Source of the DNA: Lobosporangium transversale
Lineage: Eukaryota
Reading direction: 5' to 3'
Assembly: GCF_002105155.1 (NCBI RefSeq)
Contig: NW_019028980.1
Location: forward strand, 1,240,001-1,304,000
DNA: 64,000 bases
This document shows positions 955 to 38,212 of this stretch, piece after piece (position 1 is the first letter of the stretch; every line of letters begins with the position of its first letter). A model generated the notes under the pieces. It was given only the letters and a program-made list of their open reading frames with translations, was not told where the DNA came from and did no database searches. The position numbers were made by a program, and so were the translations under genes.

Positions 955-1251
955 CCATTATAGAATATGTAACAAATCAAGAGATTTGATATTAGAATCT
1001 CTTTCACATCGTCGTCAAAAGGCATATATGAATGAGTTAATGTACTGCATACCTCTCAGGCCCTTTCAAGAACTCTTTGAAGTCAATACCAGCACAGAAA
1101 ATTGATTTGAGATCGCTCTTAAGCATCGCTGCACGAATTGATGGATCTTGCTCCATAGTTTCCCATTCCTAAATTGTAATCGTAAAAAAAAGATAAAGGA
1201 CATTCAGTATTTTTGCTCCGCAGAGAGACGGGAAATAAATAAAATATACAC

Positions 1252-1283
<32 letters not shown>

Positions 1284-1599: not shown

Positions 1600-2205
1600 T
1601 TGTAATGAGTGGAATGGAAAGTAATTTGAAAGGAATTGATGCAACAAAAAAGATCTATAAAATTATTGACACGCGTTTTGGATTGGTGAAATATTAAATA
1701 GCGCAGGATAAAATAGGACGCCAGAAATTCAGGAACTGATTAGAAATGCTCTCTGATATAGCCTGGCACGTATATATAAATGTATAGTAGTTATAAAACG
1801 CTGAACCAGAAACTATATCCTTGATTATGCCAGAGGGAACACAGAGCTTATTACTGGATACTTATGATGGTTTTTATTATAAAAAATGAAATGAAATATA
1901 GTACAATGGAAGGATAAGAGGTTCTCTCGCTCTCCGCTGGATCGGATCGACATGTATACTCTTCCCCATTATGGTGCTGCTCAGTTCTATTGATACTATC
2001 GTGCATAAGAATCACTTAGAATAAAGTGCGCGACCTCATAATGAACTCGTTGCATTTACTACATCTGCTACAAGTAAATCAATATCCTTTGATTACTTCA
2101 CTCCCTGAAATCATCCCTCTTCGGTTTCGTATCCAAAGCATCGCTCCTCGCTAATTTGAGCTTGGATAGCGTAGATACCACCGCCTTGGCCTCATGGCTT
2201 GCTCC

Positions 2206-5200
2206 CTAGGGAGTCCGACACTGTTCTGGATCACTGACAGATCCATGTTGATCCAAAAACTTCCTGTTGGCTTCACTCAAGCCGATCACGCCTCGAATTC
2301 TTGCACCAACGGCATTAAGAGGCGAGTGTCTCGTGGTCCACTTCAAGCGGACACGACATTGGCTATTCCCACTCTTGACAATCCTCCACATCCGAATACC
2401 ACCATCAAAATGTCCGGTCACCAAGGAGCAGTGTTCTTCAGAAATAGCCCATGCAAGGGCCCTAGGATCGCTAGCGAATGGGATAACAGCCAAGCACTGA
2501 CCTGAATCTGGATCCCACAGCCGCACAGTCATGTCTTTACTGCTTGAGGCAATGTACTGCCCATCGCATGAATAGGATATGGTGTTTATACCCCCGGTGT
2601 GTTCTTTAAGCGTACGCAATACGGCTCCTGATTCAGTGTCCACTATACTAATTGACCCATTTCCACTTCCAACAACTGTCAGTTCGCTGGATGGTGAAAA
2701 TGTTATGTGCTCTTGAGAACCATCGAAGTTTGTTTCGTGCAGTAGCTCGCCCGTTTCTGCGCTCCGTACTTGCAGCTTATTTTTGTCCTGGATAAATGCT
2801 ATCTTCCGACTGTCAGGTGAATATGCCATAAAGGAGGTGCCCTCAAAGTCATACAGAATCCCCCAGGTGTGCATTTTCCAGACTATGATTCTTCCATCGC
2901 TATAGTAAGAAGCAACCTGGGCACCATCAGGCGAGAATAACACACGTTCGGGGTCTTTATCGTGCCCCGGCAGAGTAGTGGGTTTTTTTGTTATCAAGTC
3001 CCACACACTCACATTGCCATTTTCATGGCCACAGGCAATATGGAGGCCAATTGGTGAAATATCAAAGACCAGGATAGTATCAAAGACCAGGATAGCCGGG
3101 CCTCGATAGATCGGACGCAAAGTGTCAGTAATTTGGCCTGATTCAGTGTTCCATAAGTAAATACAATGGCCAAGGTAAGGGTCAGACGAGGCTAACAATT
3201 GACCACCAGGGTGGTACTTGACATCGTATGTTTGCCTTCGTAGAACATAGATACATTGCCCTGATTGACTATCCCACACACGCGCTTCATCACCAAGGCC
3301 GCATGAGGAGATGCGTTTTCCATCTGGCGACAATCTTAACTCTTTGGTGGGGCCCCTGTGGCCATACGAATCGTGGCTAGTTTGCCTCGCTTGTGTGTCC
3401 CACAGATGTATCATCCCATCATTGCCGAATGACGCAACCTGATGGGAGTTTGGCGAATACGCTACATCAATTATATCGCAAGAGTGACCATGGAATATGT
3501 TGACCAATTGTCCTGACCTAGCATCCCAAAGTCGCAATGTACGGTCGAGAGAACTAGTGACTATCTGTTTTCCTTTTGGTGAATATTGCAGATCTTGGAT
3601 CACGGCGGTATGGCCTGCAAAAGTATGGATGACTTTTCTTGTTTGCATATCCCACTGATATGCTATCGTATTAGAGAACGAAGCGGCATGCTTTCCGTCA
3701 GGGGAATATTGAACACCGTCGGGATCGAAAATATGGCTCCCATCTTTCAAGCTCCCCTTTCGCTGACCAGACCCAGCATCCCATACATTCAAGGGGCCGA
3801 TGCTAAAACAAGTTATGATCTCCTGACTGTTAGGTGAATATACGATCTGGTTGATTTTGTAACCATCGCCCTGGGCCGTCGACACCAGCCCCCCTGATGC
3901 CGCATCCCACAGCCGCATCGTCCATTTTTCATCAATTGAGTTTCCAGCAGCAGCAAGCTGCTTCCCATCAGGTGAATAGGCCATGCTTGCCACTTTGCCA
4001 ACGTAATCCTTTAATGAATGCTGGAGTGCGCCAGAGTCGGTGCTCCATATATGCACTGACCCATCCTTGCTACCTGAGGCGAGATAGTTGCCATTTGGCG
4101 AGTATACCACATGATAAACATCAACTGCAGGACCATTCAATGTACGGACCACTGCCCCTGATGTTGCATCAAATACAGAAACTGTATTGTTATCCCCAAT
4201 GGCAATATGGCGACTGTCTGGAGAGTAGGTGAAGTTGTATGTGTGCACGTCCCTCAAAGTCATACGCTTCGCCCACGTGAACGTATCATAGATGCTGACA
4301 TGCATCTTTTTGGAATCACGATTGTACGTAGCTGCAGCAAAAGCCTTGCCATTAGGCGAATATATTCCCTTATATATTTCTCCCTCTTCTTTAAGGGATG
4401 GCCATCCTCCAAATTGTACACCTGCCATCTTTGCTCCCTCCAAGCCTGCTCCTCGAAGATAACAGCCGCGAAGATTGACATTCCTCAAATCTGCCCCTTG
4501 TAGTTGAGCACTATCGAATATACCATGACTAATGTCAGCTCCGGGGATCTGGATGCCTTGCAAGTCTGCTTCGCTGAATGACTCTCTTGCTCGTACCAGT
4601 ATCGTCATTGCATTCGCTGCTGCTATCCGCCATCTCTTGTCGCTCTTCGATAGCTCAACATACTCATACAGCTGCTGCTTGAACTTTGGTTCAATCTCAA
4701 CACGCTCTTTCAGGAACTCAAGGATCGATGGCTCATCCACAAAGCTCCTCCACACTAAAGGTGAGGTCTCATCTGCCTTGGCTGGATCTAGCTCACCTCC
4801 ATCCGCTTTACTCCCTTCCACTTCAAAGCTGAATACAGAGCTGACACTTTGTCGGCGACATTTCAGTGCTGTTGCTGCTACTGTATCACTTGCAACTGCA
4901 TTTGCCTTTTTCTGTGGCTCGAACATCGCTCGTACCACACAGTACTCCAGAATAGACCGATGCACAAACCGATACTGATTGCCTGTACGGCTCAGAGGTG
5001 ATGCTTCTCGAAGGAGGTGTTTCTTGCTTCCTCGGCTAAAGTACTCTCTCTTCCATGCTTCTTTGCGCTTACATGGATACTCTACCACTGGGTTGCCATT
5101 TTGATGCTTGTAGATTGCCACGGCCAGTTCTGTCAAGTACTTAATCCCATTTCGTGAAAACCCCTCATCGCACAGTATTTGGAACATCTCCTTATCTGAG

Positions 5201-8200
5201 CTATCGCTTGGCGGTGCCTCGATTAGTCGTTTCTCTCCTCGTTTGAGCCACGACTCAATGAACTGGTCATACAGTGTGATGCGCTTGAACTTTGTTGCAG
5301 AGATGTCTTGATGTGGGTTTATCATTTGAGGCAGCACTTCTAGTGCCATCGATAGTATGAATGGATTCTTCACAAGCTCTTGTAGACTAGGGACCATCTT
5401 GAGTGCAAACTGATAGTCCTCTACACTCCACAATATGCCTTCGCTTGGGACATTCTGTTTGATGTACTCATCAATCTGATCCTCAGAGAATGGTATAATC
5501 ACAGCCTCTTGGAACAAACCAGTATCTGCTTGGTGGTTGCAGCCCATAGGCTGGAACCGATCTCGATAGTCTATCCCAAGGTACTCGCTGCGACAACTAA
5601 TCACCATCTGACACTTCCATTCGCCAGACTGGTTGAGGCGGTTGGTGAAATAAAGGTTGCCGGGCAGCGTAATCTCATCATATCCATCACAGATCAAGAT
5701 GAATGCCCGATTCTTCTTCAACTCTTTGATCTGTTTCTTGGTGAAACCATGTATTTGCAGCTGTTTTGTGACCATATCTTTGGATGGGTCATTGATAGCT
5801 GGCAGGTAGATAAATAATGGAATCCGATGGTCCTTTGAATACTCTTTCCACAGCTTGTGCTCCAAAGTGAGGTTGAATGTCGATTTGCCTGCTCCTGAAT
5901 CACCTTGGACGAGTAGCACTTTCTGGTCACTGTTTAGGAACTCCCTCACCTTGTCCATTATCAAGAACGAATCGTCGTCACTTGCTTGGGGACTTGCCTT
6001 GGCATACTGCTGAATGTAGAAGGGTCTAACTTCCCTGTCCTCCATCCGCTGTTGCTTGAGCATACGTAAACTCTTCTCGACATCAGGCTTTTTCTGCGCA
6101 CGATCGAGTAATGACGGGGATGCAGGTGGAGGCGGGTTGACAATGAAGTGGTACTGTGGCTCTGGCTCCTGGATACAATCCTTGAAGAGTTGCTGTTTTT
6201 TGACATCTCCATCCTTAGCAAGGCTATCCAGGAGTAGCTTTGCAGCTATAAAGAGACAAATGCAGAGTATTATATACTATCGATATCAGTATCCCTACTT
6301 CCCGTAACTGAGTCAATGATGACGAATTAAAGATGAGATACCATGCCCACCTTGTAGGCCATCACTTGGCAAAGAGTCCAGTCTCCTCAGTATACCAATA
6401 ATACATCGCTTGATCTCCACATGATCACCCCAATCCTTGTCATTCCTGTATATCACTTCAAGAAAAGTGATCGCGTCTTGACGAGTTTCCATGTCCCACT
6501 GTGTATTGGCTGCAATCTGTCCTAACCGCTGACATAGCCCCCATTGGAATGCTGGCTCTCGTCGACAGGGCACCTCACGCACAAAAGCCTTGAACTTGGT
6601 GAGCTCGCCCAACTGAAGGAATGTATCAACTCCACGGAGCGCTGGATACCATGCACTCCTATGATTATATTTAAATCCTGCTTCCAAGCACTGTTTGAAG
6701 GCCTCTCCACTCTTAGCTAATGAGGCTACACCGTTGTACACACGCAAGCTCATGCCGGCAATTTCCGCCACAGTTGGAAGCCCTTCCTGAATATTGATCA
6801 GCTCATCCATGAAGGCATTTATATTTAGGTCTTTGACTGCACTCACTATTCCAAACACTCCTCGAGCCACTACTGATGTGCGTCGAAGCGTGGCTTGCAT
6901 TAGTGTTTCATCATTTGGAATATATAACAGTGCTTGGAAAGCATAGGCTGCATGGAATGCTAGATGTGGCTCTGACCTCCTTCGTAGTTCCCCCAAGTAG
7001 ACTGATAATGGCTCGTGAAGTTGCTCTCGCTTCAGGCCCTTGACTTGATTGTTAAGCATGGCATCCAGTACATGTGAGACTGACACACATAGCCGATATA
7101 TGTGGTTGCTAGACTGATCATGTGTGCTCTGCAAGCGGGAACCGAGGATATTGAGGATATTGACTAGGTCATCAGAGTCAAGGTATCCGGAAGAGGCATG
7201 CTGGATCAGCTGAGCTAATCCTCCCAGCAAATTAGTCTCTAGCATGGTGCTCCCATTGATTCTAGAGACTAAGAACTCAAGTACTGCCTTATACTGATCT
7301 TCGTTGAGGACTGGAGCCAGCATCACCACTTCAGCGACAGTAGCCTTGGTCCTGATATCGTCATGAATGAATATTGTAATAACGGCTGAGGCCAGGCTGT
7401 GAAGTCGATCTTGCTCATCTTGATTCTTCGCTGTGATCAAAGACCACTCTTGCTCCTGAACTGTAATTTCATTTTGCGGTTGGTTTGCAGTACCAAGCAG
7501 GCTGAGGCAGTAGACGAGATGGTGGATATCGACCAGAGAAGCATCTGGAGGGGGCAAACTGTACTTGGGCACTCGAGCTACATCACAAGCAAATATGTCT
7601 ACAGGGATAACTGAATTACTGTGCGGTGTTTTGGCTGTTACTGCTCTATTCACCCTCAGCTGGCTGATGCTGGTACTACTGGATCCTTGGCTGACGCTAT
7701 TATTGCTGCCTCTACCGTTGCTAACACTGCTAATGCTACTGGTGATACTATTGCTGTTGCTAATGCTGTTGCTAATACTGCTGTTGTTACTTGTGCTACC
7801 GCTAATAATGCTTTTATTGCTGCTGTTGCCGTTGCTGTTGTTGTTGCTGTTGCTGTTGCTGTTGCTGCCGCTGTTGCTGTTGTTGTTGCCGTTGCCGTTG
7901 CTGTTGCCGTTGCTGTTGCTACTTCTATTGCTGTTGTTGTTGTTGTTGCTAGCAGAGCTATCTGGCTGTAATGACTCTTGGCGGGTTGGAATATATCCCC
8001 ACTTCTCTGCTTTTTTGTCGTTCTTCTTAGCTTTGCATGTGTGGCCCAGACTTTGGAATAAGCAAGCGACTTTGTAGTGGGCTAAACCAATGCTTTGGCA
8101 GAGCTTCTGGTCTTCAGCGGAGCTTGAGGAGACAAGCCTCTTTCTCTCCGACCGCTGGATTCGAGACAGTGCAGCATGTGCATTAAGACACAACTTCTTG

Positions 8201-8310
8201 AGGGCGGCACTGCCATTACTTTCTATTCCAGAGTCTTCCATACTACTATTGAATTCCCTTAGAGCCTCAGATGGTGAGAGAACGCCTCGTGACGAAAAGC
8301 AGCTGAACAT
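2206..8310 (-). CDS. NLR-A: N-terminal helical domain + Asn/Ser linker + ARM-like domain + NACHT + pentapeptide repeats + WD40 array, 1999 aa; exons 8310-6351 and 6245-2206
   Basis: A phase-1 GT-AG intron at 6350-6246 joins the 665-aa and 1285-aa ORFs in frame (1960+4040=6000 nt). Walker A GDSGAGKS, Walker B LICDGYDE, NPF and YRFVHRSILEY motifs, ADL/AQL pentapeptides, many YSPDG...LWD repeats. Confidence 0.9.
7690..7950 (-). repeat. Coding low-complexity repeat (AGCAAC/AACAGC/GGCAAC units) encoding the Asn/Ser/Gly-rich linker of NLR-A
   Basis: Runs of gttgct/gttgcc on the + strand; translates to SNNNNNSNRSSNSNGNSNGNGNNNSNSGSNSNS... Confidence 0.9.
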
Positions 8311-11458: not shown

Positions 11459-11825
11459 GAGATTGGCCCTGTGAAATTTTGTCTTCGCCACTTCGTCCTC
11501 GCCCACTTCGTCTTCGCCACCTTTGTTCTCCATCTTTGAAGTGTCTTTTTTTCTTCTCCTTCCACTCTCCTTTTCACACACCACCCATTTTCAACATCCT
11601 CCTCCTCTTTTCTTTCCTTCTATATCCTTCAACTTTTCTGTCGTATCTTTTAGACCATCTATACCCTATAATCTCTATAATCGTATCCGACTGCTCCACT
11701 GTAAGGTTTCCTTCACCAATATTTCTAACTGATTATCTTGCTAACGGAACATTCATCATTTAACAGCAACCATTGTTTTATCAGTTACAGTAAAAGGCTA
11801 TAGACTGTCAAAAAAAAAAAAAAAA

Positions 11826-14800
11826 ATGGGATCGCAGCAAAGCAAACCCCATTCAAGAAGAGACTTCAAGTGCGCAATCAAATGGGGTCGTACACGAAAA
11901 ACATTTCAGCTTCAGACAGCTCCCGCGACTTTGCAACTATCCCGAAAGAAATATTTGGATATGATATAGCTAGAGGGACCAAATATAGCTTACCCCCTCC
12001 AAACGCTTCTCTAGATGATATTCACCACCTCGTTTACTGCCTCAGAGTGCTCTCGACTGCACCAAAAGATCTCACAGACGAGGAGAAAGATTGGGTTTCG
12101 GTCATATCGGATGATAAAGATGAAAAAAAGCGACTTCGCAAAATGGCTCCGGATGTGGCTAAAATGTTTATTCGTGATAACAACAAGACCAAAGCTACTG
12201 TTGCTGAGGTCGTAATGCTGGCTCCGGTCCTCGACGATTATCATTATACGAAAGTGATCAGCACTTTGATCGACCTAATCAGTAAAGGTATTATGCTAGA
12301 GACTACTTTGCTAGAAGGGTTAGCTCAGCTGATACAGTATGCTTCTCCAGGATGCCTCAACTCTGATGATCTGGTCAATATCCTCATTCCCCTCAGTTCT
12401 CGTCTACAAGGCATTCACGAGCAGTCTAGCAGCCACATTTATCAACTGTGTGTAGCAGCCTCACATGTACTTGATGCCATGGTCAACAATCAAGTCGAGG
12501 GTCTGGAACGAAAACAGCATGAGGCACTAACAGCTTCCTTCAAGAGGCTGCGAGACAGTTCAGACCCTTATTTGGTATATCATGTAGCATATGCTTCTCA
12601 AGCTCTACTGTATATTCCAAATGATGAAACACTAATGCAAGCTATGCTTCGGCGTACATCAGCGGTTGTACAAGGTGTATTTGGATTAGTAAGTGCGGTC
12701 AAAGATATAAATCTAAGTGACTTCCTGCATGTGTACAACAATGTAGTCTCACTAGCCAAGAGCGGGGAGGCATTCAAGCAGTGTATGGAAGAAGGCTTTA
12801 GCTTCAGTCGCAAGGCCGCATGGTATCCAGCACTCCGTAGAGTTGATGCATTCCTCCAATTAGGTGAGCTCACCAATTTCAGGACTCTCGTATGTGAAGC
12901 ACCCTGTCGACGAGAACCAGCATTCCAATGGGGATTATGTCAACGCTTAGGTCAGATTGCAGCCGATACACGATGGAACATGAAAGTTCGTCAATATGCG
13001 GTCACTTTTCTTGGAGAGATGTACAAAAATGACAAGGATTGGGGCGACTATGTGGGGATCAAGCGATGTATCATTGGTATACTGAAGAGACTGACCTCAC
13101 TGTCAAAGGATGACATACAAAGTGAGTAGACAATAAGTCTCATCCTTAGTTCACCATCATTGGTTCACTTGTGAGGATCAGAGGAACTGACATTGATATA
13201 TTTATCGTGCTCTACATAAATTTCTTTGTAGCGGCAAGACTGCTTCTGTGTAACCTTGCTATGGATGGAGATACTAAAAAACAACAGCTCTACAAGGATT
13301 GTTTCCAGGAGCCAGAGCCACACCCCTTCATTTACATACCGTCGCCACTTGAATCTCCGTCATTGGTTGATCGTGTGCAGGACAGACCTGATGTCGGGGG
13401 GAGTTTGCGTATACTCAAGCAACAGCGGAAGAAGGCAAGAGGCGACAAGTTCTTCTACATTGACCAATATGCCAAGGCGAGTCCTCAAGCTAGTGATGAC
13501 AAATCGTTTCTATTGATGGACAAAGTGAACGAGTTCTTGAAGAGCGAGCAGAAAGTGCTGCTTATCCAAGGTGATTCAGGAGCAGGCAAATCGACATTCA
13601 ACCTTGCTTTGGAGCGTACTCTATGGGAATCATTTCGAGAGGGAGATGACGGGATCCCATTACTCATTAACCTGCCAGCCATCGACAACCCAGCCAACGA
13701 TATGGTCGCAAAACAGCTGCAAATACATGGTTTCACCAAGAAACAGATCAAAGAGTTGAAGAAGAATCGGGCATTCATCTTGATCTGTGATGGATATGAT
13801 GAGATTACGCTGCCCGGCAACCTTTATTTCACCAACCGCCTCAACCAGTCTGGCGAATGGAAGTGTCAGATGGTGATTAGTTGTCGCAGCGAGTACCTTG
13901 GGATAGACTATCGAGATCGGTTCCAGCCTATGGGCCGCAACCACCAAGCAGATACTGGTTTGTTCCAAGAGGCTGTGATTATACCATTCTCTGAGGATCA
14001 GATTGATGAGTACATCAAACAGTATGTCGTAAGCAAAGACATATTGTGGAGTGTAGAGGACTATCAGCGTGTGCTCAAGACGGTTCCTAGTCTACAAGCG
14101 CTTGTGAAGAACCCATTCATACTTTCAATGTCCTTGGAAGTATTGCCACGTATGGTTGATCCACGTCAAGACATTTCTAAAGCTCAGATCAAGCGCATCA
14201 CACTATATGACCAGTTCATTGAGTTGTGGTTTGAGCGTGGCAAGAAGCGACTAGGCGAGAGATCAGCGGCAAACAGTGCAGACAGGGATATGTTTCAAGC
14301 ATTATGTGATGAAGGGTTCGCACAGAATGGAGCCAGATACTTGAAAGAGCTGGCTGTTGCAATCTATAAGCATCAAGGAGGCAATCCAGTCGTAGAATAT
14401 CGCCCGTTCAAACACGGGGGCACATGGAAAGACCAATACTTTAGCAGAGAGAGTAGGAACTACCTCCTGCGAGGGGAATCACCTCTAAAACGCACAGGCA
14501 ACCAGTATCGGTTTGTCCATCGGTCTATCCTAGAGTACTCTATGGCGTTAGCGACCTTTGAGCAAAAGGAAGTGACGAATGCGACTGTAAATGATCAGGG
14601 AACAGCAGCGGAATACGGTGAGACTTCACCTCTGGTATGGAGAAGCTTTGTGGACGAGCCATCTATCCTTGAATTCCTGAAAGAGCGTGTCGAAATAGAA
14701 TCAGAGTTCAAAGAACAGCTGTATAAGTATGTTGAACTGTCGAAGAGCGACAAAAGATGGCGGATAGCGGCAGCAAATGCAATGACAATCTTAGTCCGAG

Positions 14801-17088
14801 CAGGGAAGTCGTTCACTGGGGCGAACTTGCAGGGCATCCGGATCCCAGGAGCCGACCTTAGCCATGGGATATTCGATTGTGCTCAGCTACAAGGAGCGGA
14901 TCTAAGTGGCGCCAACCTTCGTAGCTGCTGGCTTCGCGGAGCAGACCTGAGCGGGGCAAAGGTGGGAGGCGTACAGTTCGGAGAATGGGCACTTCTTCGT
15001 GAAAGGGGAGCGATAATCCAAGGGTCATATTCACCTGATGGTAGAACATTTGCTGCAGCTGTATACAGCTTTTATACCAAGGAAAGCTATGTCAGCATCT
15101 ACGATACATCGACATGGGAGAAACGTATGACTTTGGGTGCCGATGTGAGGGACAACTGCTCCTCTACCGACTTTATCTACTCTCCAGACAGGCTACACAT
15201 TGCCATATGGTACAGACATGACAGGAGTATGATTTTTGTGTTCGATATAGCAACAGGCAGAGAAATCCATAAGCTGGAGGGTCATGCAGCCGTTGTCTGT
15301 TGTGCAGCATACTCACCAGATGGCAGCCATCTCGCATCAGGTGGCGGAGATGGATCAGCGTACGTGTGGGATACTAGGTCTGGGGTGGTTCAGTACAGAT
15401 TAAAGGGACACAATGGTGAGGTGACAAGCATGGCATATTCGCCTAATGGGAAATGCGTTGTGACGGGAGGCGAAGACAAGGCGGTACGGCTATGGGATGC
15501 AGCATCAGGGAAGCCAATAGTGGTGCTCCAGGGCTGTGAATCTCGAGTTGAGCAAATTTTATGTTCGCCTAACAGTCAGAAAATCATTGTTCGTTCTTAC
15601 GATACACTGAATGTGTGGGATGCTAAATCTGGCCAGAGGATTTGGGCCTTGAAACATAACGGCCATGTCAGCGGTGTTCAATATTCGCCCGATGGGAAAT
15701 ATGTTGCTTCGTTCTCCGAGAATACAGCATTCCAGTGGAATTTGCAAACAGGAGAAGTCACTCATGCCCTTTCAGGCCATTACGATCGGATCAGAGACTT
15801 GAAATACTCACCGAATGGAGAGCAGCTAGCCACTTGTGCTTCGGACAGTACAGTGCGACTTTGGGATGCTCGATCGGGGCAGTTGATCAGCACATTTTAT
15901 GGCCACTCCCGTACATATAATGACATAAATGGTGTGGCATATTCGCCAAACAACTCTCAGGTTGCATCATTCAGTGAAGGTGAAACTATACGCCTGTGGG
16001 ACACGCAATCACGACAATCAAGCCATGATTCATATGGTCACACAAAATCAGTTCACCGAGTAAAGTTTTCGCCGGGTGGGCAGCAAATAGCCTCATGCAG
16101 CCCCCGGGATACAGTACGAGTGTGGAATACTCAAACGGGACAATGTATTCATATTTTACAATCCGATACGTTCGATGTAAAGTATTCGCCAGACGGCCAA
16201 CTGCTTGCCTTTCACAACTACAATGATGAGCGCGTTCACCTTTGGGATACTGTATCGGGCCAAGCTGTTCACACCATGGACCCGCAGAAACAGAGCCATA
16301 GCGGCTACGCCTTTGATATTTCACCAATTGACCCCCAAATTGCCTGTGGTGATTACAGCAGAAACGTGGGTGTGTGGGACATGCAAACAGGACAATGCAT
16401 ACGTACCCTGAAGGGGGAGGGCAGTACTGTGAAGCGTGTGTTATTCTCCCCCAATGGTCATCAGATTGCTTCTTATGACTCAAGTGGGAGGATCATAGTC
16501 TGGGCAGCGCGCTCAGGGAAGCTCCTGTATGTCCTGCGTGGGTTGAAAGCCGATGAACTATTTGAGGGTTTTTTAGTTTATTCACCTAATAGTCAGAGGA
16601 TAGCATTTATCCATGACTACAAAACACTCCAATTATGGAATGCAGAAACAGGCAAGCTGTGCTACAAAAGAGTCCTCGATGATTTCCAACAACACATCGC
16701 ATTTTCACCGTGCAGTCGACAGCTGCTTGTTGGAAGTAAAAATGGGTCAATTGTCATGGTAGGCACTGAGTCAGGAGCTTTGTTGCATAAGTTTACAGGG
16801 CATACCAACACTATAACCGCCATATCTTATCCTTGTGACGGTCAGTACATCGCCTCAAGCAGCTATGACGGTACTGTACGGCTGTGGGATTCAGAGTCAA
16901 GCAAGTGCTTGGCTGTCATCCCATTTGCAGATGGATATGTTCAAAGCCTTGCATGGAGTAATGCCGAAGGAGGGCACTTACTGGCGACAGGGCATGATGG
17001 GGGTTGTATTCGAATGTGGAAGATTGCTAAGGATGAGCATGACCGATGCCATCCTCGCCAGTCGCTGCACAGTTCGTCCAGCTTCTAA
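11826..17088 (+). CDS. NLR-B: ARM-like + NACHT + pentapeptide + WD40, lacking the N-terminal helical domain and conserved C-tail; intron 13122-13231. Orthologous ATG 11826 is out of frame by 1 nt; in-frame ATG 11882 gives 1698 aa
   Basis: Same phase-1 intron as the paralogs; Walker A GDSGAGKS and Walker B LICDGYDE intact. The 5' end ATGGGATCGCAGCAAAGCAAACCC aligns with the NLR-E start ATGGGATGGATGCAAAGCATGCCC. The A5 run at 11897-11901 would need to be A6 to keep that frame. Confidence 0.8.
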
Positions 17089-18651
17089 TATGATTCAAGC
17101 ATAAATAGCATTATACCCTTTTCCCATAATATAAACGACACTCAATCTACCCTTAATCCTATGCCTTCTGGCCAGGCCTTTTGCAGCTTCCAAAAAAGCA
17201 AGCCATGTAACCAAGACAGCGCAATCTATGCCATCCGGGCTCGCTGGAGTAGAAAGCGATGCTTTGGATACGAAATTGCAAAGAGGCAACTTTGGAGAGT
17301 GAAGTAGCTATTTATTTGTGGTAAATATAGCAAGAGTAACGATTATGAATTTGCGTATCTTTTCTAAGTGGGTCGTAAGACAGTATCGATAGTTGACCAG
17401 CGTCATGAGAAGAACATACATGTCGATGCAGGGAAATGTCTTACTCTCACACCGTTTTTTCATTATTTTACTTTACAATATTAAGCCACATAGACTACAT
17501 GTACTTGCTGGATTGATATCTCCTTAGTTCCTTATGCTACTCAACCACTCTAGCATCCTGCAATAAGCTCCATATATTATAGTATGGAAGCAGTATTTGA
17601 AGTGTATTTTAAGACGAGGATATAGTGTTCTAGAGCAAACGTGGGTTTGTGTTCACGTTCATGCTTATGAAAGGTAGCATATTTACTTGGCATAGAGACA
17701 GTCAAAGGACGAAGTCAATTGGTCATTTCTGAAGAACTTTCAAAATGAGGCCGTGAAGAAAAAAAAAAGGTGTAAAGCAAATTAACGGGTAACATTGGTA
17801 AAGAGAGACCTTCAGGAAAACCACTTGAGAACGCGAATGAGGTTTAGATAATGAGTAATCTAAAATAAGACAATGAAGATAGGTGAATCAAAAGAATAGG
17901 GGAATACCAAAGATGGATGTTTGAATAGAAGAGCAAGGAAAAAAAAGGGGGCTAGCTCGACATTTCCACAGATCAATCTCCGAAATAAGAGACGATGCAC
18001 AATGCTCTGACAATAGGAAGAATTGTCTTTGTCACTATAGATGATTTCCTATATGGGCGAAGTACAGCCACTGTTTCTATTTTCTATTTATATGCATGAA
18101 AACAAAAGAAAAGGCAACAACTATAATGTTTGTGGCCAACTCTCTTTCCTTGTGGCACAGATCTTGATTCCTGAATTATGATTATGGGACAACCTTTGCC
18201 TTTACTCAGTCGATACATTACTGTAATATTCAAATTGTGTGAAACAACGTAATGAAAAGTGAGAATCAGATGCGGGGGAAGACCCCTGCTTAGATATTTG
18301 TACCACTTGGATTACATACTTATCCCCTCCGAAGTATGCTGCAAGATCTTGAGCGGGAAAATTTTCCTTGAATTGAGCAAAAAAACCACACATGTCAAAG
18401 CCATATTTACTTTTTCACATCTATTTTCCCTTTTGTTTTCCTTCTCTTTTCTCTCTTACATCACACTAAACCCATCCCTTATCAGAAAGCACCATTTACA
18501 TAATTACATGCTTAGGAATATTTGTAAGTATAAAAAAACATCGATCATCCCTACAACCGTATCTATCTATAGTATTATCTAATAATGGCTCTTAATTCAT
18601 TGAAATCAGTAGAGCACAAACTATAGAAGTGGAAAAAAAAGACAATAGCTA

Positions 18652-21600
18652 ATGTTTTGTATTCCGCTGGCTTCATCTGGAGGGGTCCTCTCGCCAACAA
18701 TGGCTCTAGAGCTCTTCAACCTTTACATGGAGGACGTCCAAAGAATAGACAATGACGATGGCGCCCTCACAGAGCTGTGTCTCGATGCAGACTTCGCACT
18801 ATCTCGAATAGAACGGTCAGAGAGAAAGTATCTAGCCTCTTCACATTCTATTGAAGATAAAACGCTTTGCCAAAGTATTGGTTCGGCCCATTCTGAAGTA
18901 GCTCGCCTATTCGATCGTTTAGATCGCTCATTTGATGCTAAGAAAAGCGCCAGAAAAGCAAAAAAGTGGGGATATGTCCAAGGGAACAACATTATCCGCC
19001 AGGAGCCATCACAACCTGACAACTCCATTAAGGATAGCAGTAGCAGCATTAGCAGCACCAACGGCAACAGCAATATAAGCAACAGCATTATCAACATCAA
19101 TAACAATAGCAACAATGATAACACCGCCCTAGCATTGAAGAGGATGATTAGAGCAGCGAGAATCGGAGCAACACAGAGTATCGCAGTTGTTTCCACAGAC
19201 ATATTTGGCCAGGACGAAGCTCGGGTAGTCAAGTACAGCCTGCCCCTTCCAGATGCCTCTCTGGATGATATCTACCACCTTGCCTACTGTCTCTGCCTGC
19301 TTCGTACTGCAAACCAACCGCAAAATGAAATTACAGTTCAGGAGCAAGAATGGTCCTTAGCTACATTAAATGATCAAGATGAGCTAGATCGACTTCACAA
19401 CCTAGCTTCAGACGTGGTTACGACGTTTATTCGGGATGATATTAAGACCGAGAGTGCTGTTGCTGAGGTTGTAATGCTAGCTCCAGCTCTCGACAGTAGG
19501 CAATACAGGAAAGTGCTCACTCATGGCTTTGATTAATAGAATCAATGAGAGCGCCATGCTGGAGGCTCATTTGCTGCAAGGATTGGCTCGACTGATGCAA
19601 CATACTTCTCCTGGCTATCTTGAGTCTGATGATCTGGAAAACATCCTCAATGCTCTCAGTTCTCACTTACAAAGCATGCATGCACAAACCGGCGATCACA
19701 TCTATCGGCTATGCATGACAATCTCAAGTGTACTCGATGCTATGGTCAACAGCCAAGTCGAGGGCCTGAAGCGAGTGCAGCTCCATGAGCCATTAGCAGC
19801 CTACTTAAAGGGACTGAAAGACAGTTCAGATCCTCATCTAGTATACTATGCAGCATATGCTTACCAAGCCCTGTTGCATATTTCAAATGATGAAACACCA
19901 ATGCAAGCTATGCTTTGGCGTACACCGGCAGTGATTCGAGGGTTTCCTGGAGGGCAGAGTGCAATAAAAGAACTTGATCAAAATACCTTTATGAATGAAC
20001 TGATCAATATCCAGAAAGAGCTTCCGCCTGCGACAAACGCTTCAAACATGTGCCGCCGTTTCTTCAATAGAGTTGCTTCGCTGTGGAGGGGTGGGGAGAC
20101 ATTCAAGCAATGTGTGGAAGAAGGGCTCAGCTTTAGTCGTATGTGTGCATGGTACCCAGCACTTCGTGGAGCTGACATGTTGCTCCAGCGAGGCGCGGTC
20201 ATCAAGTTCAAGGCACTTGTGTGTGAGGTGCCCTGCCGACGAGACCCTGCATTCCAATGGGGACTATGTCAGAGGTTAGGACAGATTGCAGCCAATACAC
20301 AATGGGCTATGAAGACTCGCCAAAATGCGATCGCATTTCTTGGAGAGATGTACAAGAATGATAAGGATTGGGGTCATCATGTGGAGATCAAACGATGGAT
20401 TGTCGCCATATTGGAGAAACTGATTCTGTCGTCAAAGGATGGCCTAAGGGGTGAGTTGATATCGTATCTCATTGCTAGCTCGCCATCATCGGCACTAATA
20501 CCAGTAATGCACTGCGCTCCACATGTGTTTTCTAGTAGCTGCAGAGACACTCCTGAGGAGCCTTGCCGCAGATAGAGATGTCAGCAAGCAACAGCTCTAC
20601 AAGAAATACCCCTTTATTGCCACATCATTTCAACATGGGTCTCCATCATTACTTGAACGTGTGCAGAATAAACCTGATGCCGAGAACAGTTTGCGTATAC
20701 TCAAGCGACAGCGGATAGGGACTAGAGAAGACAGACACTTTTATATTCAGCAATATGCTAAAGCGAGCACTCATGCGAGCGATGATGAGTCGTTTTTGTT
20801 GATGGACAGGGCGAAGGAATTCCTGGGCAGCGACCAGAAAGTGTTACTTATTCAAGGCGATCCAGGGGCAGGCAAGTCGACATTCAACCGTAATCTAGAG
20901 TCCACTCTGTGGAAGTCCTACCAAAAGAACCACGGTCAGATCCCATTGTTCATCGATATATCAGCCATCGATGACCCAACAAAGGATATGGTCGCAAAAC
21001 AGCTACGGATTTATAGTTTCACTGAGGAGCAGATCAAGGAGCTGAAGAGGACTCGATCATTCATCTTGATCTGTGATGGATACGATGAGATCACACAAAC
21101 CGACAATCTCTACTCCACCAACCAGCTCAATCAGCCTGGCGAGTGGAAGTGCCAGATGGTGATCAGCTGTCGCAGTGAGTATCTTGGGGCAGATTACCGA
21201 GACCACTTCCAGCCTATGGACCGCAACCACCAAGCCTTTGCTGGATTGTTTCAAGAGGCTATGATTGTACCCTTCTCTGAGGATCAGATCGATGACTACA
21301 TCAAGCAGTATGTCACAACAGTAGCAACCGTGGGCCCGGAGTGGGGTGTAGAAGACTATCAGCGCGCACTCAAAATGATCCCTAACCTACTAGAGCTTGT
21401 GAAGAATCCATTCTTACTGTCACTGTCGCTAGAGGTACTACCACGGATAATGGGCTCATGCCAAAGTATCTCTAAAATGGCAATCAAACGCATTACATTA
21501 TATGACCAGTTTATTGAGCTATGGTTCGAACGAAGCAAAAAGCGACTAGGCGCGATTTTGAAGCCTGAAGATAGGAAGATGCTCCAAATATTATGTGAGG

Positions 21601-23590
21601 GGGAGTATACGCAAAATGGGATCAAGTATATGACAGAACTGGCTGTGGCAATCTACAAGCACCAAGATGGTAACCCAGTGGTGAGTTACTCTTCATCCAA
21701 GCACGGGGGTACATGGAAGGAGGAGTACTTTAGCAGAGAGAGCAAGAAGCGCCTTCTACGAGAAACATTGCCTCTGCGCCGTACAGGCGATCAGTATCGA
21801 TTTGTCCACCGGTCTATTTTGGAATACTGTGTTGTGCGAGCGATTTTTGAGCCACAAGAAGCGGAGAGTATGAGCGCAAGCGACAGAGAGGGATCATTGA
21901 CACTGAATTACCCCTGCCATAGTGTCAGCTCTGTGACCACCTTTGGAACTGAAGATAACAAAGTAGGTGAGCAGGAAGCAGAGTCGGCCAAGGCAGATAA
22001 GGCCTCACCTTTGGTGTGGAGAAGCTTTGTGAACGAGCCATCTATCCTTGAGTTCCTGAAGGAGCGTGTCGAAACCGAATCGAAGTTCAAGCAACAACTG
22101 CATAAATACGTTGAACTGTCGCAGAGCGATAAGAAATGGGCGATAGCAGCGGCGAACGCAATGTCTATCTTTGCCCGGACAGGAGAGCCGTCCGCCGAAG
22201 TAGGCTTGCGAGGCAGACAGACTCCAGAAGCCGACCTAAGTCGCGATGTATCTGATTGCGCTCAGCTACAAGAGGAAGATACGGAGGATAGCAGCCTTCG
22301 TTCCTGTTGGCCTCAGGAAACAAACCTTAGTGGGACAAAGATGGAAGGCGTACAGTATGGAGAACGAACTGCTCTCTGCAAAGAGGGGCAAATACACCGG
22401 GGATTATATTCTCCTGATGGCAAGGCCTTTGCTGCAGCTGTGCGTAATGATGATACCAAAGAGGACTATGTCAGCATCTACGATACATTGACATGGCAGG
22501 AGCGTGTGACTTTGGAAGTCAATGTCTTTGGAGACAGCTTTATCTTCTCTCCAGACAATCAACATATTGCTATATGGTATGACGATAGTACAGTTTCTGT
22601 AGTTGACATCACATCCGGCACAGTGGTTCATAGGCTAGAGAGCCATACAGACATTACTATCCATGCGGTATACTCGCCAAATGGTGATTATCTCGCCTCG
22701 GGCAACAGAGATGGATCAGTGCATGTGTGGAATGCCAGATCTGGCATGATCCAATACACATTAGAGGGTCACGATGGCGGAGTAACAAGCATAGCATATC
22801 CATTTGATGGGAAGCAAATCGCAACTGGAGGTGAAGACGAGACGGTACGACTATGGGATACCACAACAGGGGAGCTGGTGCTGATGCTCCAAGGCTGCGA
22901 ATCCCCAGTTATGCAAATCATATATTCGCCTAACGGTCAAGAAATTATCACTCGTTATTTCGACTGCATTTTACTAGATGTATGGGATGTCAGGTCTGGT
23001 CAGAAGAAGTGGGTCTTGGAGCATGAAGATAGTGTCAGAGGTGTTCAGTATTCTCCTGATGGGGAATACGCCGCTTCTTTTTTCAGGAATATAGTATTCC
23101 AGTGGAATATGCAAACAGGGAAAGTCATTTACGCTCTTAGAGGCTCCAGTCCCTTCAGCATCATCGCTGACTTGAAATATTCACCAAAAGGGGAACAGAT
23201 AGCTACCTGTGCTTGGGACAATACAGTGGGGCTGTGGGATGCTCGATCAGGACAACTGGTCCACACATTCTATGGCCACTCTTCTATGATATGGGGCGTG
23301 GCGTATTCGCCAAACAGTCGTCAAGTTGCATCATTCAGCAAGGATGGGACAATACGCTTGTGGGACATATGATCATCGTATTCTAGTTGTGATTCATGTG
23401 TTCAGGCACCCGAGTAAGACTTTTATCGGAAGAACAACTTTTAGCCTCATGCAGCAGCGACAATATAGTGCGTGTATGGGATAGTCGGATAGGACAGTGT
23501 ATCCAAGTCTTACAGAACCGAGAAGAGAGCATCAAATATCTACATGGCGATCAGTTAATTGAAGGGCGCTGTGCTCTTTTCACTGTTTAA
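18652..23590 (+). pseudogene. NLR-C: disrupted paralog (4-bp duplication frameshift at 19516-19523, intron 20451-20538, premature TGA at 23370-23372, WD40 array truncated)
   Basis: CTCACTCA stands where paralogs have CTCA. NACHT motifs are present (GDPGAGKS). The pentapeptide consensus is eroded. A frameshifted WD remnant (LASCSSDNIVRVWDSRIGQC) follows the stop and homology ends near 23565. Confidence 0.85.
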
Positions 23591-31434: not shown

Positions 31435-34400
31435 GGTCGAGGTTTGTGCATAACATCATTACTTCTCACCTTAAATATCTTTTGTTTACAGAGTTCATGC
31501 TGGAGTTCAGAGAAACTTTTTACAGAACGTTTGTATCATTGAAGGCCTGGTACTGAGGGAATAGCAGCCTGGCAAGTAAACCATATAGCTATCTTATTGT
31601 AGAAATGAGATAAATAACTAAATAACTAAAAACTGTGAAAGCATGGAAACCTCACTCTACTAGTCCGACATGTATACTCCTCTCATGGTGCTGATCAGTT
31701 ACTATCAGATTTGATGTTTAAACCACTTAGGATGAAATGTGCATCTCCACACTTGTCGCATTCGCTACATTTGCTACAAATGAATTAATATCCCTTACTT
31801 TCTCCACTTTTAGGCCTTGCTCTGACCCTGTCCCTCTTTGAGGTCGTATCCAACACATTGCTTTCCACTTCTCCGGTCCTAGGTAGCGTAGATGTCGCTG
31901 TATTGGTCTCATAGCTTGCTTTTTTAGAAGTCGGGCACTGCACTGGGTCACCAACAGCTTCATGTTGTTCCAAAAGCTTTCTGTTAGCTTCACTCAACCC
32001 AGATACATCTCGAATGTTTACTTTGTGAGCGTTAAAAGGCTGTTGCTCCGTGCTCCACTTCAGTCGGATATGGCACTGGCCATACTCATCCTTAACAATC
32101 CGCCACATCCGGATAGAGCCACCTTCATATGCTGTTACTAGAAAGTGACCTTCTCCGGTAACATTCCATGCAAGGCTTGTAATACCTTTGTATATATTCG
32201 GGAGAACAGCCAAGCACTGGGCTAACTTTGCGTCCCATAGTTGTACAACTGTATATTCACCAAGTGAGGCGAAGTACTGGCCATCGCTAGAATAAGAAAA
32301 GCTTATACGTCCGGCATGTCCTTCAAGTATATGTAACACCACCCCTGATTCTGTATCCACCACGCTAATTGATCCACTATAAGCCCCAACAGCCACCAGC
32401 TGGCTGGATGGTGAGAATGCAATGAATCGTTGTTGACAATCGAAATTCGTTTCGGAACAAAGCTCGCCTGTTTCTGCATTCAGTAGCTGGAGGATATTGT
32501 CGTTCTGAATCAGTGCTATCTTCTGGCTGTCAGGCGAGTAAACCATTGAATGACTGCCCCTAAACTCATAAAGATAGTTCCCTGAATGCGCTACCCAGAC
32601 TTTGACTATATCACCTTGACCGCGACAAGTAATCTGGCGACCACAAGGTGAGAATAATATATCCCACAAATCGCCCCCATACTGCAAAGTACACACGAGC
32701 TTTTCAGCTTGTGTGTCCCATACATCTACTTGTCCACTTTTATAGCCAATTGCAATTTGGTGGCCAACTGGTGAAATATCAAAGGCATTGATCTCATCGC
32801 TTTTGGCTTGTGATTCCAAGACAAGGGCAGGCTGGCCTGTTCCAGTATCCAGAAGGTGAACACGATGATCACTGTAGTCATAAAATGCAAGCAGCTGACC
32901 ATCAGATGAATACTTGATGCCAAATGCTTTGTTTTTCAAGGCGCGAACACATTGTCCTGTTCGACTATCCCATACACGCACTGTACCGTCATCGTAACTG
33001 CATGTGGCCATGTACTTCCCATCCGGTGAAAGCCTTGGTGTGTCGATATCAGATATATGACCATAGGACACATGTCTAGATTGGCCTGATTGTGTGTCCC
33101 ACAGTCGTATCGTTCCATCTTCGCTGAATGATGCAAGCTGATGGTTGTTTGGCGAATATGTCACATCACATATCATGTTAGGGTGAGCATAAAGTGCGTT
33201 TAGTTGTCCTGATCGAGCATCAAAAATGCGTACTCTATGGTAATAAGCTATAGCTATCTGTTCTCCATTTGGTGAATATTTCAAGCATTTGATGTAAGTG
33301 GTATGGCCTTTAAAAGTATAGATGACTTCTCTTGTTTGCATATTCCACTGATATGCTGCATCCATGGAAAACGTAGTGGCATATTTCCCATCAGGTGAAT
33401 ACTGAATACCCTTAACGGATTGTCCTTTATGCCACAAAGTCCACTTCTTCTGACCAGACCTAGCATCCCATACATCTAGTGACCTACTGTCGTCATAGCG
33501 AGTGATGATCTCCTGGCTGTTAGGTGAATATACAATTTGCAAGAGTTGAGATTCCATATCTTGGAGTATCAGAATGAGCTCTCCTGATACCGCATCCCAT
33601 AGCCGCACTATCTTGTCTTCGCCTCCAGTTGCAATCTGCTTCCCATCTGGCGAATACACCACGCTTTTCACCGCACCAGTATGGCCCTCTAATGTGTATT
33701 TGATTGTGCCTGACTTGGTATCCCACAGATGTACTGGTCCATCCTTGCTTCCTGAGACGAGATGATTTCCATCAGGTGAGTATACTACACATTCGACAGT
33801 GCCTGCATGGCCTTCTAACTTATGAACTTCTACCCCTGATATTATATCAAACACATAAACCACACTGTCGCCTCTGTACCATATGGCAATGTGTCTACTG
33901 TCTGGGGAGTATGTAAAATTGATGGAGCGGCTTTCGTACTTATTGATCCCCAAAGTCATACACTTCTCCCATGTCAGAGTATCATATATGCTGACATGGC
34001 TCTTTTCGATGTCACGATTATACACAGCTGCAGCTAATGTCTTGCCATCAGGCGAGTATGACCCTTTCTCTGCATTCCCCTCTTCTTTCAGGAATGCCCA
34101 TTCTCCAAACTGTACACCTGACATCTTTGCTCCACTCAGATCTGCCTTCTGAAGCCAACAGCCTCGAAGATCGACTTTTCTCAAGTCTGCTCCTTGTAGT
34201 TGAGCACTATCAAATATACCATGGCTAAGGTCGGCTCCTGGGATCTGGATACCTCGCAAGTCTGCTTCGCTGAACGACTCTCTTGCTCGGACCAGTATCG
34301 TCATTGCATTTGCTGCTGCTATCCGCCATCTCTTGTCGCTCTTCGATAGCTCAACATACTCATACAGCTGCTGCTTGAACTTTGGTTCAATCTCAACACG

Positions 34401-37400: not shown

Positions 37401-38212
37401 TTTGAGTACCATTGCTGTTGCTGCTTTCATTATTGTTACAATCGTGATCATCTTTGCTTATGTTGGCAGGTTGGTGAAGCGTATGAGAACTGTCTGAAGC
37501 TAGATTGGCTTGTCGTACATGACCCCATTCGGCTGCGTACTTGTGGCCTCTTTTCGAATGATCTGGATGACCAAGATTGTCGAATAGCTCACCGATATCA
37601 TTCAGAGCAGCACCGATTGTTTTACACAATGTTTTATCTGTTGAGGCTGAGAGAAGAGACTTTCGTTCAGACCGGTGTATTCGAGAAAGAGCACTCTCAG
37701 CATCCAAACAGATCTCCAAAGCGAGCACAGGGTCGTTTGTCTTGTGTGCATGTTCCAAGTAGATGGTAGCAAGGTCTAAGGCTTTTTGAGGTAGGAGCTG
37801 ACTCCGTTTGGGCATGCTTTGCATCCATCTCATTTCTTCTTCTTTTCTTTCCCAGCCAGAAGTCGGTTAAAGCAATAGTGATTTGTTAGATTGATGACGT
37901 TTCATTAGCAAAGCAACCAACCAACTAGTTAATCGTAGTGAAGGAAGCCTTACAATGAAGGACTTGAGAACATGAATGGTGTATAAGATAGTCTACAATA
38001 CGACGGAGAAGTCGAGTAATATAAAAGGGAGAGGGGAGAATGGGAAAGAACAGTGAAAGGAGAAAAAAAAAAAAAGAGAGCAGTTCGACACCTCAACGAT
38101 GGGGAACAAGGTGGCGAAGGCGGTTAAAATAAATAAAGAAATAAATATACACAATGGTATAATATTTCTTTGAAGCGACATCTTTACGAACACCATGGCT
38201 TTTTTTGCATAC
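31435..38212. repeat. Left arm of a ~6.8-kb inverted duplication (NLR-D plus flanks)
   Basis: Its reverse complement aligns with 43266-50078 across promoter, CDS, intron and 3' flank (e.g. TTCTCTGAACTCCAGCATG, CATTTCTACAATAAG). Ends approximate. Confidence 0.85.
31785..37833 (-). pseudogene. NLR-D: near-copy of NLR-E with an in-frame TAA at 36075-36073; exons 37833-36018 and 35914-31785; NACHT-WD40 exon fully open
   Basis: GAG ATC AAG TAA TGG versus GAG ATC AAG CAA TGG in NLR-E. The 103-nt intron 36017-35915 is homologous to that of NLR-E. No other frame disruption seen before the terminal stop. Confidence 0.8.

What the first reader, a model, noticed from the sequence alone, without database searches (positions are those of the whole stretch)
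4410..4600. Pentapeptide repeats between NACHT and WD40 plus a GVxGLS tail: bacterial-style architecture, possible gene exchange with endobacteria
Seen: FSEADLQGIQIPGADISHGIFDSAQLQGADLRNVNLRGCYLRGAGLEGAKMAGVQFG directly after the NACHT helical region in A, B, D and E, and the tail LNAVGARIRGVIGLSEANRKFL. Established: A(D/N)Lxx pentapeptide beta-helices and STAND-pentapeptide-WD40 proteins with a similar tail are typical of cyanobacteria and other bacteria, not of Dikarya NLRs; Mortierellaceae host Mycoavidus endobacteria. From recall, unverified: Mycoavidus encodes similar NACHT-pentapeptide-WD40 proteins. These 6-kb genes also have one coding intron and no homopolymer tracts, unlike their intron-dense neighbours. 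Inference: horizontal transfer in either direction. The tail may add a final coil to the beta-helix and close the WD40 region into a loop.
Basis: partly seen in the sequence, partly recalled or inferred. Interest (0 to 1): 0.8.

Follow-up and report, generated by a model that had tools for sequence, protein, structure and literature searches.

The report
Bacterial-derived NLR with clasped propeller sensor
This soil-fungus gene encodes an immune-receptor-like switch protein from a family already reported as shared with, and likely taken from, the fungus's internal Mycoavidus bacteria; the new detail is that its short tail is predicted to fold back and finish a pentapeptide coil, clasping the sensor region into a loop.

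Summary
Gene A (minus strand, 8310-2206, about 1999 aa, one coding intron) reads ARM_5, NACHT, three pentapeptide coils, two WD40 propellers, conserved tail. Four paralogues lie in the window: E intact, B shortened and tail-less, C and D broken. The transfer idea is largely published: Ciach 2024 lists Mortierellomycota NACHT-pentapeptide-WD40 receptors as acquired from Mycoavidus, and Wojciechowski 2022 noted the shared N-terminal domain. I confirmed it: intronless Mycoavidus copies (38-57% identical to A, up to 69% to other fungal copies) lie among bacterial genes. Fungal copies group with one Mycoavidus paralogue lineage inside deeper bacterial diversity, and the two fungal lineages examined share one phase-1 intron. 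Bacterium-to-fungus is the best tree, but the alternative root was not rejected (AU p 0.087-0.098). Not found in my literature searches: AlphaFold2 gives the tail the beta-helix register (pLDDT 85-96, falling to 65-70 without the coils), and cyanobacterial relatives carry the same tail. This scan has noted similar proteins in protists (unchecked). Verdict: new member of a known kind, with one useful structural prediction.

The parts
2206..8310 (-). Gene A coding span (ATG 8310; exon 1 8310-6351, exon 2 6245-2206; about 1999 aa): helical N-terminus, Asn/Ser-rich linker, ARM_5, NACHT, pentapeptide coils, two WD40 propellers, tail
   Evidence: ORFs; intron; Pfam
6246..6350 (-). Phase-1 GT-AG intron (105 nt) between ARM_5 and NACHT; same site in all five window genes and in a distant fungal lineage; absent from the bacterial copies
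   Evidence: a spliced contig skips these 105 nt
6409..7428 (-). ARM_5 (PF23948) alpha-solenoid, residues 304-643 of the exon-1 ORF; likely the NLR_Helical domain of Wojciechowski 2022 (equivalence inferred)
   Evidence: E 7.3e-73
4630..6015 (-). NACHT ATPase plus helical domains; Walker A GDSGAGKS at 5881-5904, Walker B DGYDE, SCR, NPF and FVHRS motifs intact
4405..4584 (-). Twelve pentapeptides = three coils of a beta-helix (the finding)
   Evidence: PF00805; PDB pentapeptide proteins; period-5 bridges at model residues 64-119; top five internal covarying pairs are all i,i+20
2335..4404 (-). WD40 region, predicted as two beta-propellers (model residues 121-460 and 469-798); the fastest-diverging part among paralogues
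   Evidence: D versus E 83% here against 97% in NACHT and in the repeats
2242..2319 (-). Conserved tail: three pentapeptide-register units plus a capping helix, predicted to add a partial fourth coil to the beta-helix
   Evidence: conservation; AF2 bridges at 819/824/829 and pLDDT 85-96 against 65-70 without the coils
11804..17088 (+). Paralogue B: lacks the N-terminal helical part, has intact repeats (14806-14985), stops before the tail
18649..23372 (+). Paralogue C: likely pseudogene (frame change in exon 1, degenerate repeats 22185-22364, WD40 cut short)
31785..37866 (-). Paralogue D: repeats 34101-34280, tail about 31959-32036; premature TAA at 36073-36075 in exon 1; 91% nucleotide identity to E
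43378..49816 (+). Paralogue E: open frames throughout; repeats 47225-47404, tail about 49466-49543

Best explanation
Gene A is a Mortierellaceae member of the ARM_5-NACHT-pentapeptide-WD40 NLR-like family that is shared with Mycoavidus endobacteria and was likely acquired once from one Mycoavidus paralogue lineage, and its tail is predicted to finish the pentapeptide beta-helix so that both ends of the double-propeller sensor are pinned to one short stalk. Shown: the domain order, the intact ATPase motifs, the bacterial homologues, the shared intron and the faster change of the propellers. Inferred history: the module is old in bacteria (cyanobacteria, small-genome relatives in the same GTDB class, Glomeribacter, Mycoavidus) and expanded in Mycoavidus; one ARM_5-bearing copy entered an early Mortierellaceae genome, gained one intron and expanded again by local duplication with frequent decay. 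Inferred mechanism, by analogy with STAND proteins such as Apaf-1 (established knowledge; Apaf-1 is a top fold match): a ligand, likely microbial, binds the variable propellers; the clasped beta-helix passes the change to the NACHT helical domains; nucleotide exchange drives oligomerisation; the N-terminal helical/ARM part recruits or acts as the effector. Because the clasp lies outside the propellers, repeats could be gained, lost or changed without unseating the sensor.
For: Homology: Mycoavidus loci at 38-57% identity over the 538-aa NACHT-repeat region; some other fungal copies reach 69% to the nearest Mycoavidus lineage, while Mycoavidus paralogues fall to about 30% to A. Not contamination: single intronless frames beside hisA, hisE, murA and an ornithine carbamoyltransferase gene. 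Patchy range: 14 of 396 scored genomes of that bacterial family match, all 1.9-3.1 Mb. Trees: fungi plus the 34-row Mycoavidus lineage form one side with SH-like 100 (492 rows) and SH-aLRT 99, 95 and 99. With 15 nearer bacterial outgroups the best tree is a ladder of Mycoavidus lineages ending in the fungi, whose 17 rows are one clade (support 56). ARM_5 occurs in 3 of 5 outgroup genomes tested. Two cyanobacterial proteins share helix, repeats, WD40 and tail. Intron: all 80 of 85 fungal loci that cover the junction carry 67-128 extra nt against the bacterial frame, and 60 give a consensus-donor phase-1 intron. Tail: motif in 105 of 184 fungal and 148 of 228 bacterial proteins long enough to test; AF2 with and without the coils. 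Prior art agrees on the direction.
Against: Holding all Mycoavidus/Glomeribacter rows together, as a fungus-first or sister history allows, was not rejected: p-AU 0.098 and 0.087. Outgroup branches are long, the careful IQ-TREE run did not finish, and support for fungal monophyly is only 56. FastTree placed the 34-row Mycoavidus lineage inside the fungi, and two mixture-model trees left fast-evolving fungal rows outside it. Most of that bacterial family lacks the gene in the sample searched, so Mycoavidus itself got it from somewhere. The 80 metagenome loci all come from one assembly, so the intron test covers two fungal lineages, not the family; 20 of 80 junctions gave no consensus-donor intron under my rule. 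The tail contact is read from DSSP pattern and pLDDT, not from coordinates; repeat-tail covariation was noisy; B lacks the tail yet keeps clean repeats. No function was tested.
Confidence: 0.72

Rival explanations
1. Round trip or repeated exchange: after a first transfer to the fungi, a fungal copy went back into Mycoavidus and founded the lineage closest to the fungal genes, or several Mycoavidus copies entered fungi independently.
For: FastTree nests the 34 Mycoavidus rows inside the fungi; IQ-TREE with no or far outgroups leaves some fungal rows outside them; the N-terminus of the L001 protein resembles by eye that of fungal copies.
Against: Fungal monophyly is not rejected (p-AU 0.267) and is the best tree with nearer outgroups; the stray fungal rows have long branches; a return trip needs exact loss of the shared intron.
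Confidence: 0.14
2. Fungus-first (or eukaryote-first): the Mycoavidus/Glomeribacter ancestor took the gene from a host and expanded it, and the fungal genes are the older stock.
For: Mycoavidus monophyly not rejected; the gene was not found in 382 of 396 genomes of the bacterial family; a related N-terminal domain is reported in Pezizomycotina NLRs; a Dentiscutata NACHT-pentapeptide protein appears at 31% to an outgroup query; earlier scan notes report the core in protists (unchecked).
Against: The best trees root inside Mycoavidus, by 18 and 30 log-likelihood units; bacterial paralogues are far more divergent and varied (only 29 of 76 match A's ARM piece); the same architecture is in other bacteria next to housekeeping genes; every organism-named hit among the 120 closest to A is Mortierellaceae.
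Confidence: 0.1
3. The tail does not join the beta-helix; it is an independent cap, localisation signal or binding site for another protein.
For: No coordinates were inspected; cross-module covariation is weak and includes pairs with the first coil; paralogue B lacks the tail.
Against: The tail has the same five-residue register, with bridges at the same position of each unit as in the coils; it loses two of three bridges and about 20 pLDDT points when the coils are left out; it travels with the repeats in bacteria, including a Mycoavidus protein with no Walker A before the repeats.
Confidence: 0.15

Closest known systems
NACHT-PPR(pentapeptide)-WD40 NOD-like receptors of Mortierellomycota acquired from Mycoavidus (Ciach et al. 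2024, PMC11291939; passages and supplement rows seen; Cluster_151: 70 fungal proteins, donor Burkholderiaceae, support 94)
   Same: Same domain order, same fungal group, same bacterial partner, similar identity (they give about 45-50%)
   Different: In the passages and rows seen they do not mention the tail, the shared intron, the donor paralogue lineage or the outgroup bacteria; the window's genes are further members
NLR_Helical NACHT-WD cluster KFH66451 (Wojciechowski et al. 2022, PMC9815663; passages and supplement rows seen)
   Same: Long alpha-solenoid N-terminus, NACHT, PENTAPEPTIDE WD annotation, homologues mainly in Mycoavidus, transfer suggested
   Different: Their Pezizomycotina NLR_Helical proteins end in HEAT/TPR repeats; direction and the pentapeptide-tail structure are not treated in what I saw
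Cyanobacterial NACHT-pentapeptide-WD40 proteins (Calothrix BAY66817.1, Nostoc WP_114080806.1)
   Same: GNAATL-type helix, pentapeptides, WD40 and a C-terminal I-x-x-[IV]-K-G-L-T-E-A-E tail with a helix
   Different: Only about 25% identical to the Mycoavidus NACHT region; their N-terminal region was not compared with ARM_5
Apaf-1 (STAND ATPase with a double WD40 propeller)
   Same: Two propellers after a STAND module; best TM-scores in the fold search (TMq 0.47-0.52); model for ligand-driven activation (established knowledge)
   Different: NB-ARC not NACHT, CARD not ARM_5, no pentapeptide clasp (recalled)
Bacterial NACHT anti-phage proteins (Kibby et al., bioRxiv 10.1101/2022.07.19.500537; passages seen)
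   Same: NACHT switch with repeat sensors, beta-propellers or pentapeptide repeats among them; eukaryotic NACHTs proposed to come from intracellular bacteria
   Different: No mention of Mortierella in the main text; which of their clades holds this family was not tested

Membership tests
Mortierellomycota NACHT-pentapeptide-WD40 NLRs (Ciach Cluster_151) | NACHT, pentapeptide and WD40 domains in that order | tested here: met
   PF05729 and PF00805 above cut-off; PF00400
Mortierellomycota NACHT-pentapeptide-WD40 NLRs (Ciach Cluster_151) | Closest non-fungal homologues are Mycoavidus/Burkholderiaceae endobacteria at about 45-50% identity | tested here: met
   75 of the best 76 prokaryotic loci are Mycoavidus, 38-57%; 56 weaker confirmed hits were not shown
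Mortierellomycota NACHT-pentapeptide-WD40 NLRs (Ciach Cluster_151) | Fungal sequences nested among bacterial ones (xenologue status, bacterium to fungus) | tested here: inconclusive
   Best trees show nesting; Mycoavidus monophyly not rejected, p-AU 0.098 and 0.087
NLR_Helical NLRs (Wojciechowski 2022) | N-terminal alpha-solenoid of more than 500 aa before NACHT, with Mycoavidus homologues | tested here: met
   About 740 aa before the NACHT, with ARM_5; ARM_5 in Mycoavidus L001 and L126. That PF23948 equals NLR_Helical is my inference; their profile was not run
STAND/NACHT NLR-like switches | Walker A, Walker B, sensor-1 and winged-helix His motifs intact | tested here: met
   GDSGAGKS, DGYDE, SCR, NPF, FVHRS in A, B, D, E
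STAND/NACHT NLR-like switches | Ligand-triggered nucleotide exchange, oligomerisation and an immune or death output | not testable with these tools
   no assay
Pentapeptide-repeat (RFR) beta-helix | Period-5 repeats folding into 20-residue coils | tested here: met
   PDB sequence matches; 12 period-5 bridges; i,i+20 covariation
Pentapeptide-repeat (RFR) beta-helix | Tail completes and caps the helix | tested here: inconclusive
   Supported by the two-model AF2 comparison; coordinates not available; the complex predictor was unavailable
Dikarya HNWD (HET-D/HET-E type) NLRs | N-terminal HET domain, no pentapeptide insert (definition recalled) | tested here: not met
   Only ARM_5 found in exon 1; pentapeptides present

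The most novel reading that the evidence does not exclude
A split beta-helix clasp, whose last coil is supplied by the far C-terminus, is the common mount for swappable propeller sensors in a large NACHT family of host-associated bacteria; the Mycoavidus copies (dozens per 2-3 Mb genome) are exported host-directed proteins, and Mortierellaceae captured one and turned it into their main expanding receptor family for sensing or tolerating those same bacteria.
Probability: 0.2. Interest if true: 0.65.

Novelty: new member of a known kind. Interest (0 to 1): 0.32.

Why it matters
The architecture and the Mycoavidus link are in print, so the finding itself is no surprise. It still adds three testable points to a case where a fungal immune-receptor family likely came from the fungus's own endosymbiont: a specific donor paralogue lineage, one intron that marks the event, and a predicted tail-completed beta-helix that would explain how the variable propeller sensor stays mounted on the ATPase. 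Fungal strains with and without the endosymbiont allow the open question named by Ciach 2024, whether these receptors act in the symbiosis, to be tested.

Tried and rejected
No whole genome is held for the window, so copy number in this fungus is unknown. A prokaryote-genome scan with the single protein found nothing; the alignment query did. Gene A's region had no match in plasmids at 1e-5; a Mycoavidus query at 1e-2 gave the cyanobacterial proteins. One search was in the wrong frame and was not used. The careful 80-row IQ-TREE search never finished; all IQ-TREE results are quick trees with SH-aLRT only. For trees I used 492 of 522 proteins with a complete NACHT-to-repeat region, then 80, 40+8 and 34+15 chosen rows. 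Unnamed proteins were labelled bacterial or fungal by identity to Mycoavidus loci and by which search returned them, not by a record name. The apparent back-transfer in FastTree weakened under the mixture model and is kept only as a rival. The complex predictor was unavailable, so there is no two-chain test of tail binding; the fold searches were filled by propeller matches and did not test the tail. The tail alone and the first 137 residues of A match no Pfam family. Repeat-tail covariation was noisy (242 rows, effective 124); the first attempt had a pattern error. No RNA holder on record was listed; run X1 is only guessed to be RNA. The viral-contig scan gave 10 loci, 8 of them at 37-44% identity, not examined further. 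Absence of homopolymers was rejected as evidence of transfer. Literature: eight searches found no paper on the tail or a split beta-helix; the library lacks most subscription papers, I did not read the Mycoavidus genome papers, and two supplement files of PMC9815663 were not searched while a third was cut when stored.

Full report
What is in the window. Five related genes lie in 64 kb of a Mortierellaceae fungus; the nearest named proteins are from Lobosporangium transversale, up to 70% identical. Each has an exon-1 frame with ARM_5 (PF23948) and an exon-2 frame with NACHT, pentapeptides and WD40. Gene A runs from ATG 8310 to 2206 on the minus strand with one 105-nt phase-1 intron (6246-6350), about 1999 codons. 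One low-depth contig of run X1 skips exactly this intron (the run is only guessed to be RNA). The quoted peptide is at 4405-4584 and the tail at 2242-2319. A and E are open throughout. B lacks the N-terminal part and stops before the tail, D has a stop codon in exon 1, and C is frameshifted, degenerate in the repeats and truncated. The repeats exceed chance: PF00805 at E 3e-9 and 14 PDB pentapeptide sequences. The lack of homopolymers is real (1 of 70 tracts) but expected of long exons.

What is already known. Ciach et al. [quoted passage not shown] They call a role in the symbiosis an open question. Wojciechowski et al. 2022 (PMC9815663; passages and supplement rows seen) describe the shared helical N-terminus and suggest transfer; of the 30 of 47 PENTAPEPTIDE rows I saw, 29 were Mortierellomycetes and 1 was Amanita.

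Bacterial homologues. A scan of prokaryote genomes confirmed 136 relatives; the best 76 loci are 75 Mycoavidus and 1 Ca. Glomeribacter, 38-57% identical to A over NACHT and repeats. They are single intronless frames, mostly 1600-2000 aa where complete; 29 of 76 match A's ARM piece. L001 lies between hisA/hisE and murA, so host contamination does not explain it. Within that bacterial family 14 of 396 scored genomes match, all 1.9-3.1 Mb. A phylum sample gave 3 of 400 other genomes with weak matches. A class sample gave 16 of 400, mostly 1.3-2.6 Mb, at E 8e-23 to 3e-127; these have the same helix-repeat-WD40 junction, several lie beside housekeeping genes, and 3 of 5 tested carry ARM_5. I ran the class search after an earlier scan note pointed to intracellular bacteria. 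Two cyanobacterial plasmid proteins at about 25% identity share helix, repeats, WD40 and a matching tail. A divergent Mycoavidus query returned almost only Mycoavidus/Glomeribacter proteins among the organism-named rows of its best 120, so bacterial diversity is much deeper than what the fungi hold. Some fungal copies are 69% identical to one Mycoavidus lineage.

Direction. In all trees the fungal rows and a 34-row Mycoavidus lineage form one well-supported side. FastTree put that lineage inside the fungi; mixture-model trees moved it to or near the base, and with nearer outgroups the fungi became one clade at the top of a ladder of Mycoavidus lineages (support 56). Fungal monophyly was not rejected with far outgroups (p-AU 0.267). 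Mycoavidus monophyly cost 18 and 30 log-likelihood units but was not rejected either (p-AU 0.098 and 0.087). An intron separates ARM and NACHT in all five window genes; across these and 80 loci of a distant fungal lineage, all 80 of 85 loci that cover the junction have extra DNA there, and 60 give a consensus phase-1 intron, while the bacterial proteins are colinear across the site. One bacterium-to-fungus transfer followed by intron gain is the simplest reading. It is not proven: roots rest on long branches, the trees are quick searches, and the protist and choanoflagellate homologues reported in earlier scan notes (unchecked) were not in my data.

The tail. The motif W-x6-L-x-V-x-G-A-x-I-Q-x-V-x-G-L-S-x-x-N-x-x-L-L-x-Q-R-G is conserved in fungi and bacteria (105 of 184 and 148 of 228 proteins long enough to test; misses include loci cut short and my strict pattern). 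AlphaFold2 on residues 503-1352 of the exon-2 frame (mean pLDDT 93, pTM 0.86) gives 12 period-5 bridges for the repeats, two propellers (121-460 and 469-798), then bridges at 819, 824 and 829, at the same position within each five-residue unit, and a helix at 833-841, with pLDDT 85-96. Three units are too few to form a coil alone. In a control model without the helix-repeat segment the tail fell to pLDDT 65-70, kept one bridge, and pTM fell to 0.69. Covariation confirmed 20-residue coils (top five internal pairs i,i+20) but was noisy across modules: 8 of the top 15 pairs involved repeat positions 51-65, at the last coil. Eight literature searches found no description of it.

How it likely works. 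ATPase motifs are intact, the top fold matches include Apaf-1, and propellers diverge faster than the rest (D versus E 83% against 97%; A versus D 52% against 81-85%). By analogy with STAND receptors, the propellers would bind a variable, likely microbial ligand, the clasped beta-helix would couple them to the NACHT helical domains, and activation would oligomerise the N-terminal helical/ARM part. Local duplication and decay (2 of 5 intact) fit birth-and-death evolution of receptors. None of the signalling steps was tested.

Verdict. Real, well read by the first stage, mostly already known: a new member of a known kind. The tail-completed beta-helix, the donor lineage and the shared intron are the additions. 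Interest 0.32.

Noticed in passing
L005, L020, L021, L023-L025, L041, L049, L052, L054, L057, L059, L060, L067 and others (ORF ends): 17 Mycoavidus ORFs of this family, from different subgroups, end in a shared short motif like L-F-S-H-L-A; the window's proteins do not end this way. Possibly an export or localisation signal.
   Followed up: no
L247 (G845:C8:1-20000) and L248: A gene-dense contig carries a tandem array of NACHT-pentapeptide-WD40-type genes, three of which end in CaaX-like motifs, as host-prenylated bacterial effectors do (recalled). No housekeeping gene was identified there, so the contig's bacterial origin is unconfirmed.
   Followed up: partly
L003:6058-8811; G001 and G002: Mycoavidus also has many proteins of about 900 aa that match only the helix-pentapeptide part; the one examined has repeats and tail but no Walker A before them, so the module also exists without NACHT.
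   Followed up: partly
G001, G002: 79 and 83 matches at E <= 1e-10 in genomes of 2.6 and 3.1 Mb (matches, not copy numbers): a large share of a reduced genome.
   Followed up: no
P0420: A Dentiscutata erythropus (arbuscular mycorrhizal fungus) partial protein has NACHT plus pentapeptides; it may be a parallel transfer or endosymbiont DNA in the assembly.
   Followed up: partly
L139-L218: All 80 best metagenome loci come from one assembly (527 confirmed matches in the part scanned), suggesting a single fungus with a very large expansion.
   Followed up: partly
P0001, P0002, P0006, P0009-P0012, P0121, L007, L072: Several fungal and Mycoavidus proteins appear to hold two or more NACHT modules in tandem (multiple matched stretches).
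   Followed up: no
window 7500-7990 (-): Gene A has a long Asn/Ser/Gly low-complexity linker between the N-terminal helices and ARM_5; C, D and E have shorter versions. Whether it is an amyloid-type signalling motif was not tested.
   Followed up: no
window 359-1650 (-): Multi-exon enoyl-CoA hydratase/isomerase gene next to gene A (PF00378), an ordinary neighbour.
   Followed up: partly
window 31000-38500 (-) and 42800-50500 (+): D and E are a recent inverted duplication (91% over 6.8 kb) whose propellers have already diverged more than their NACHT.
   Followed up: partly
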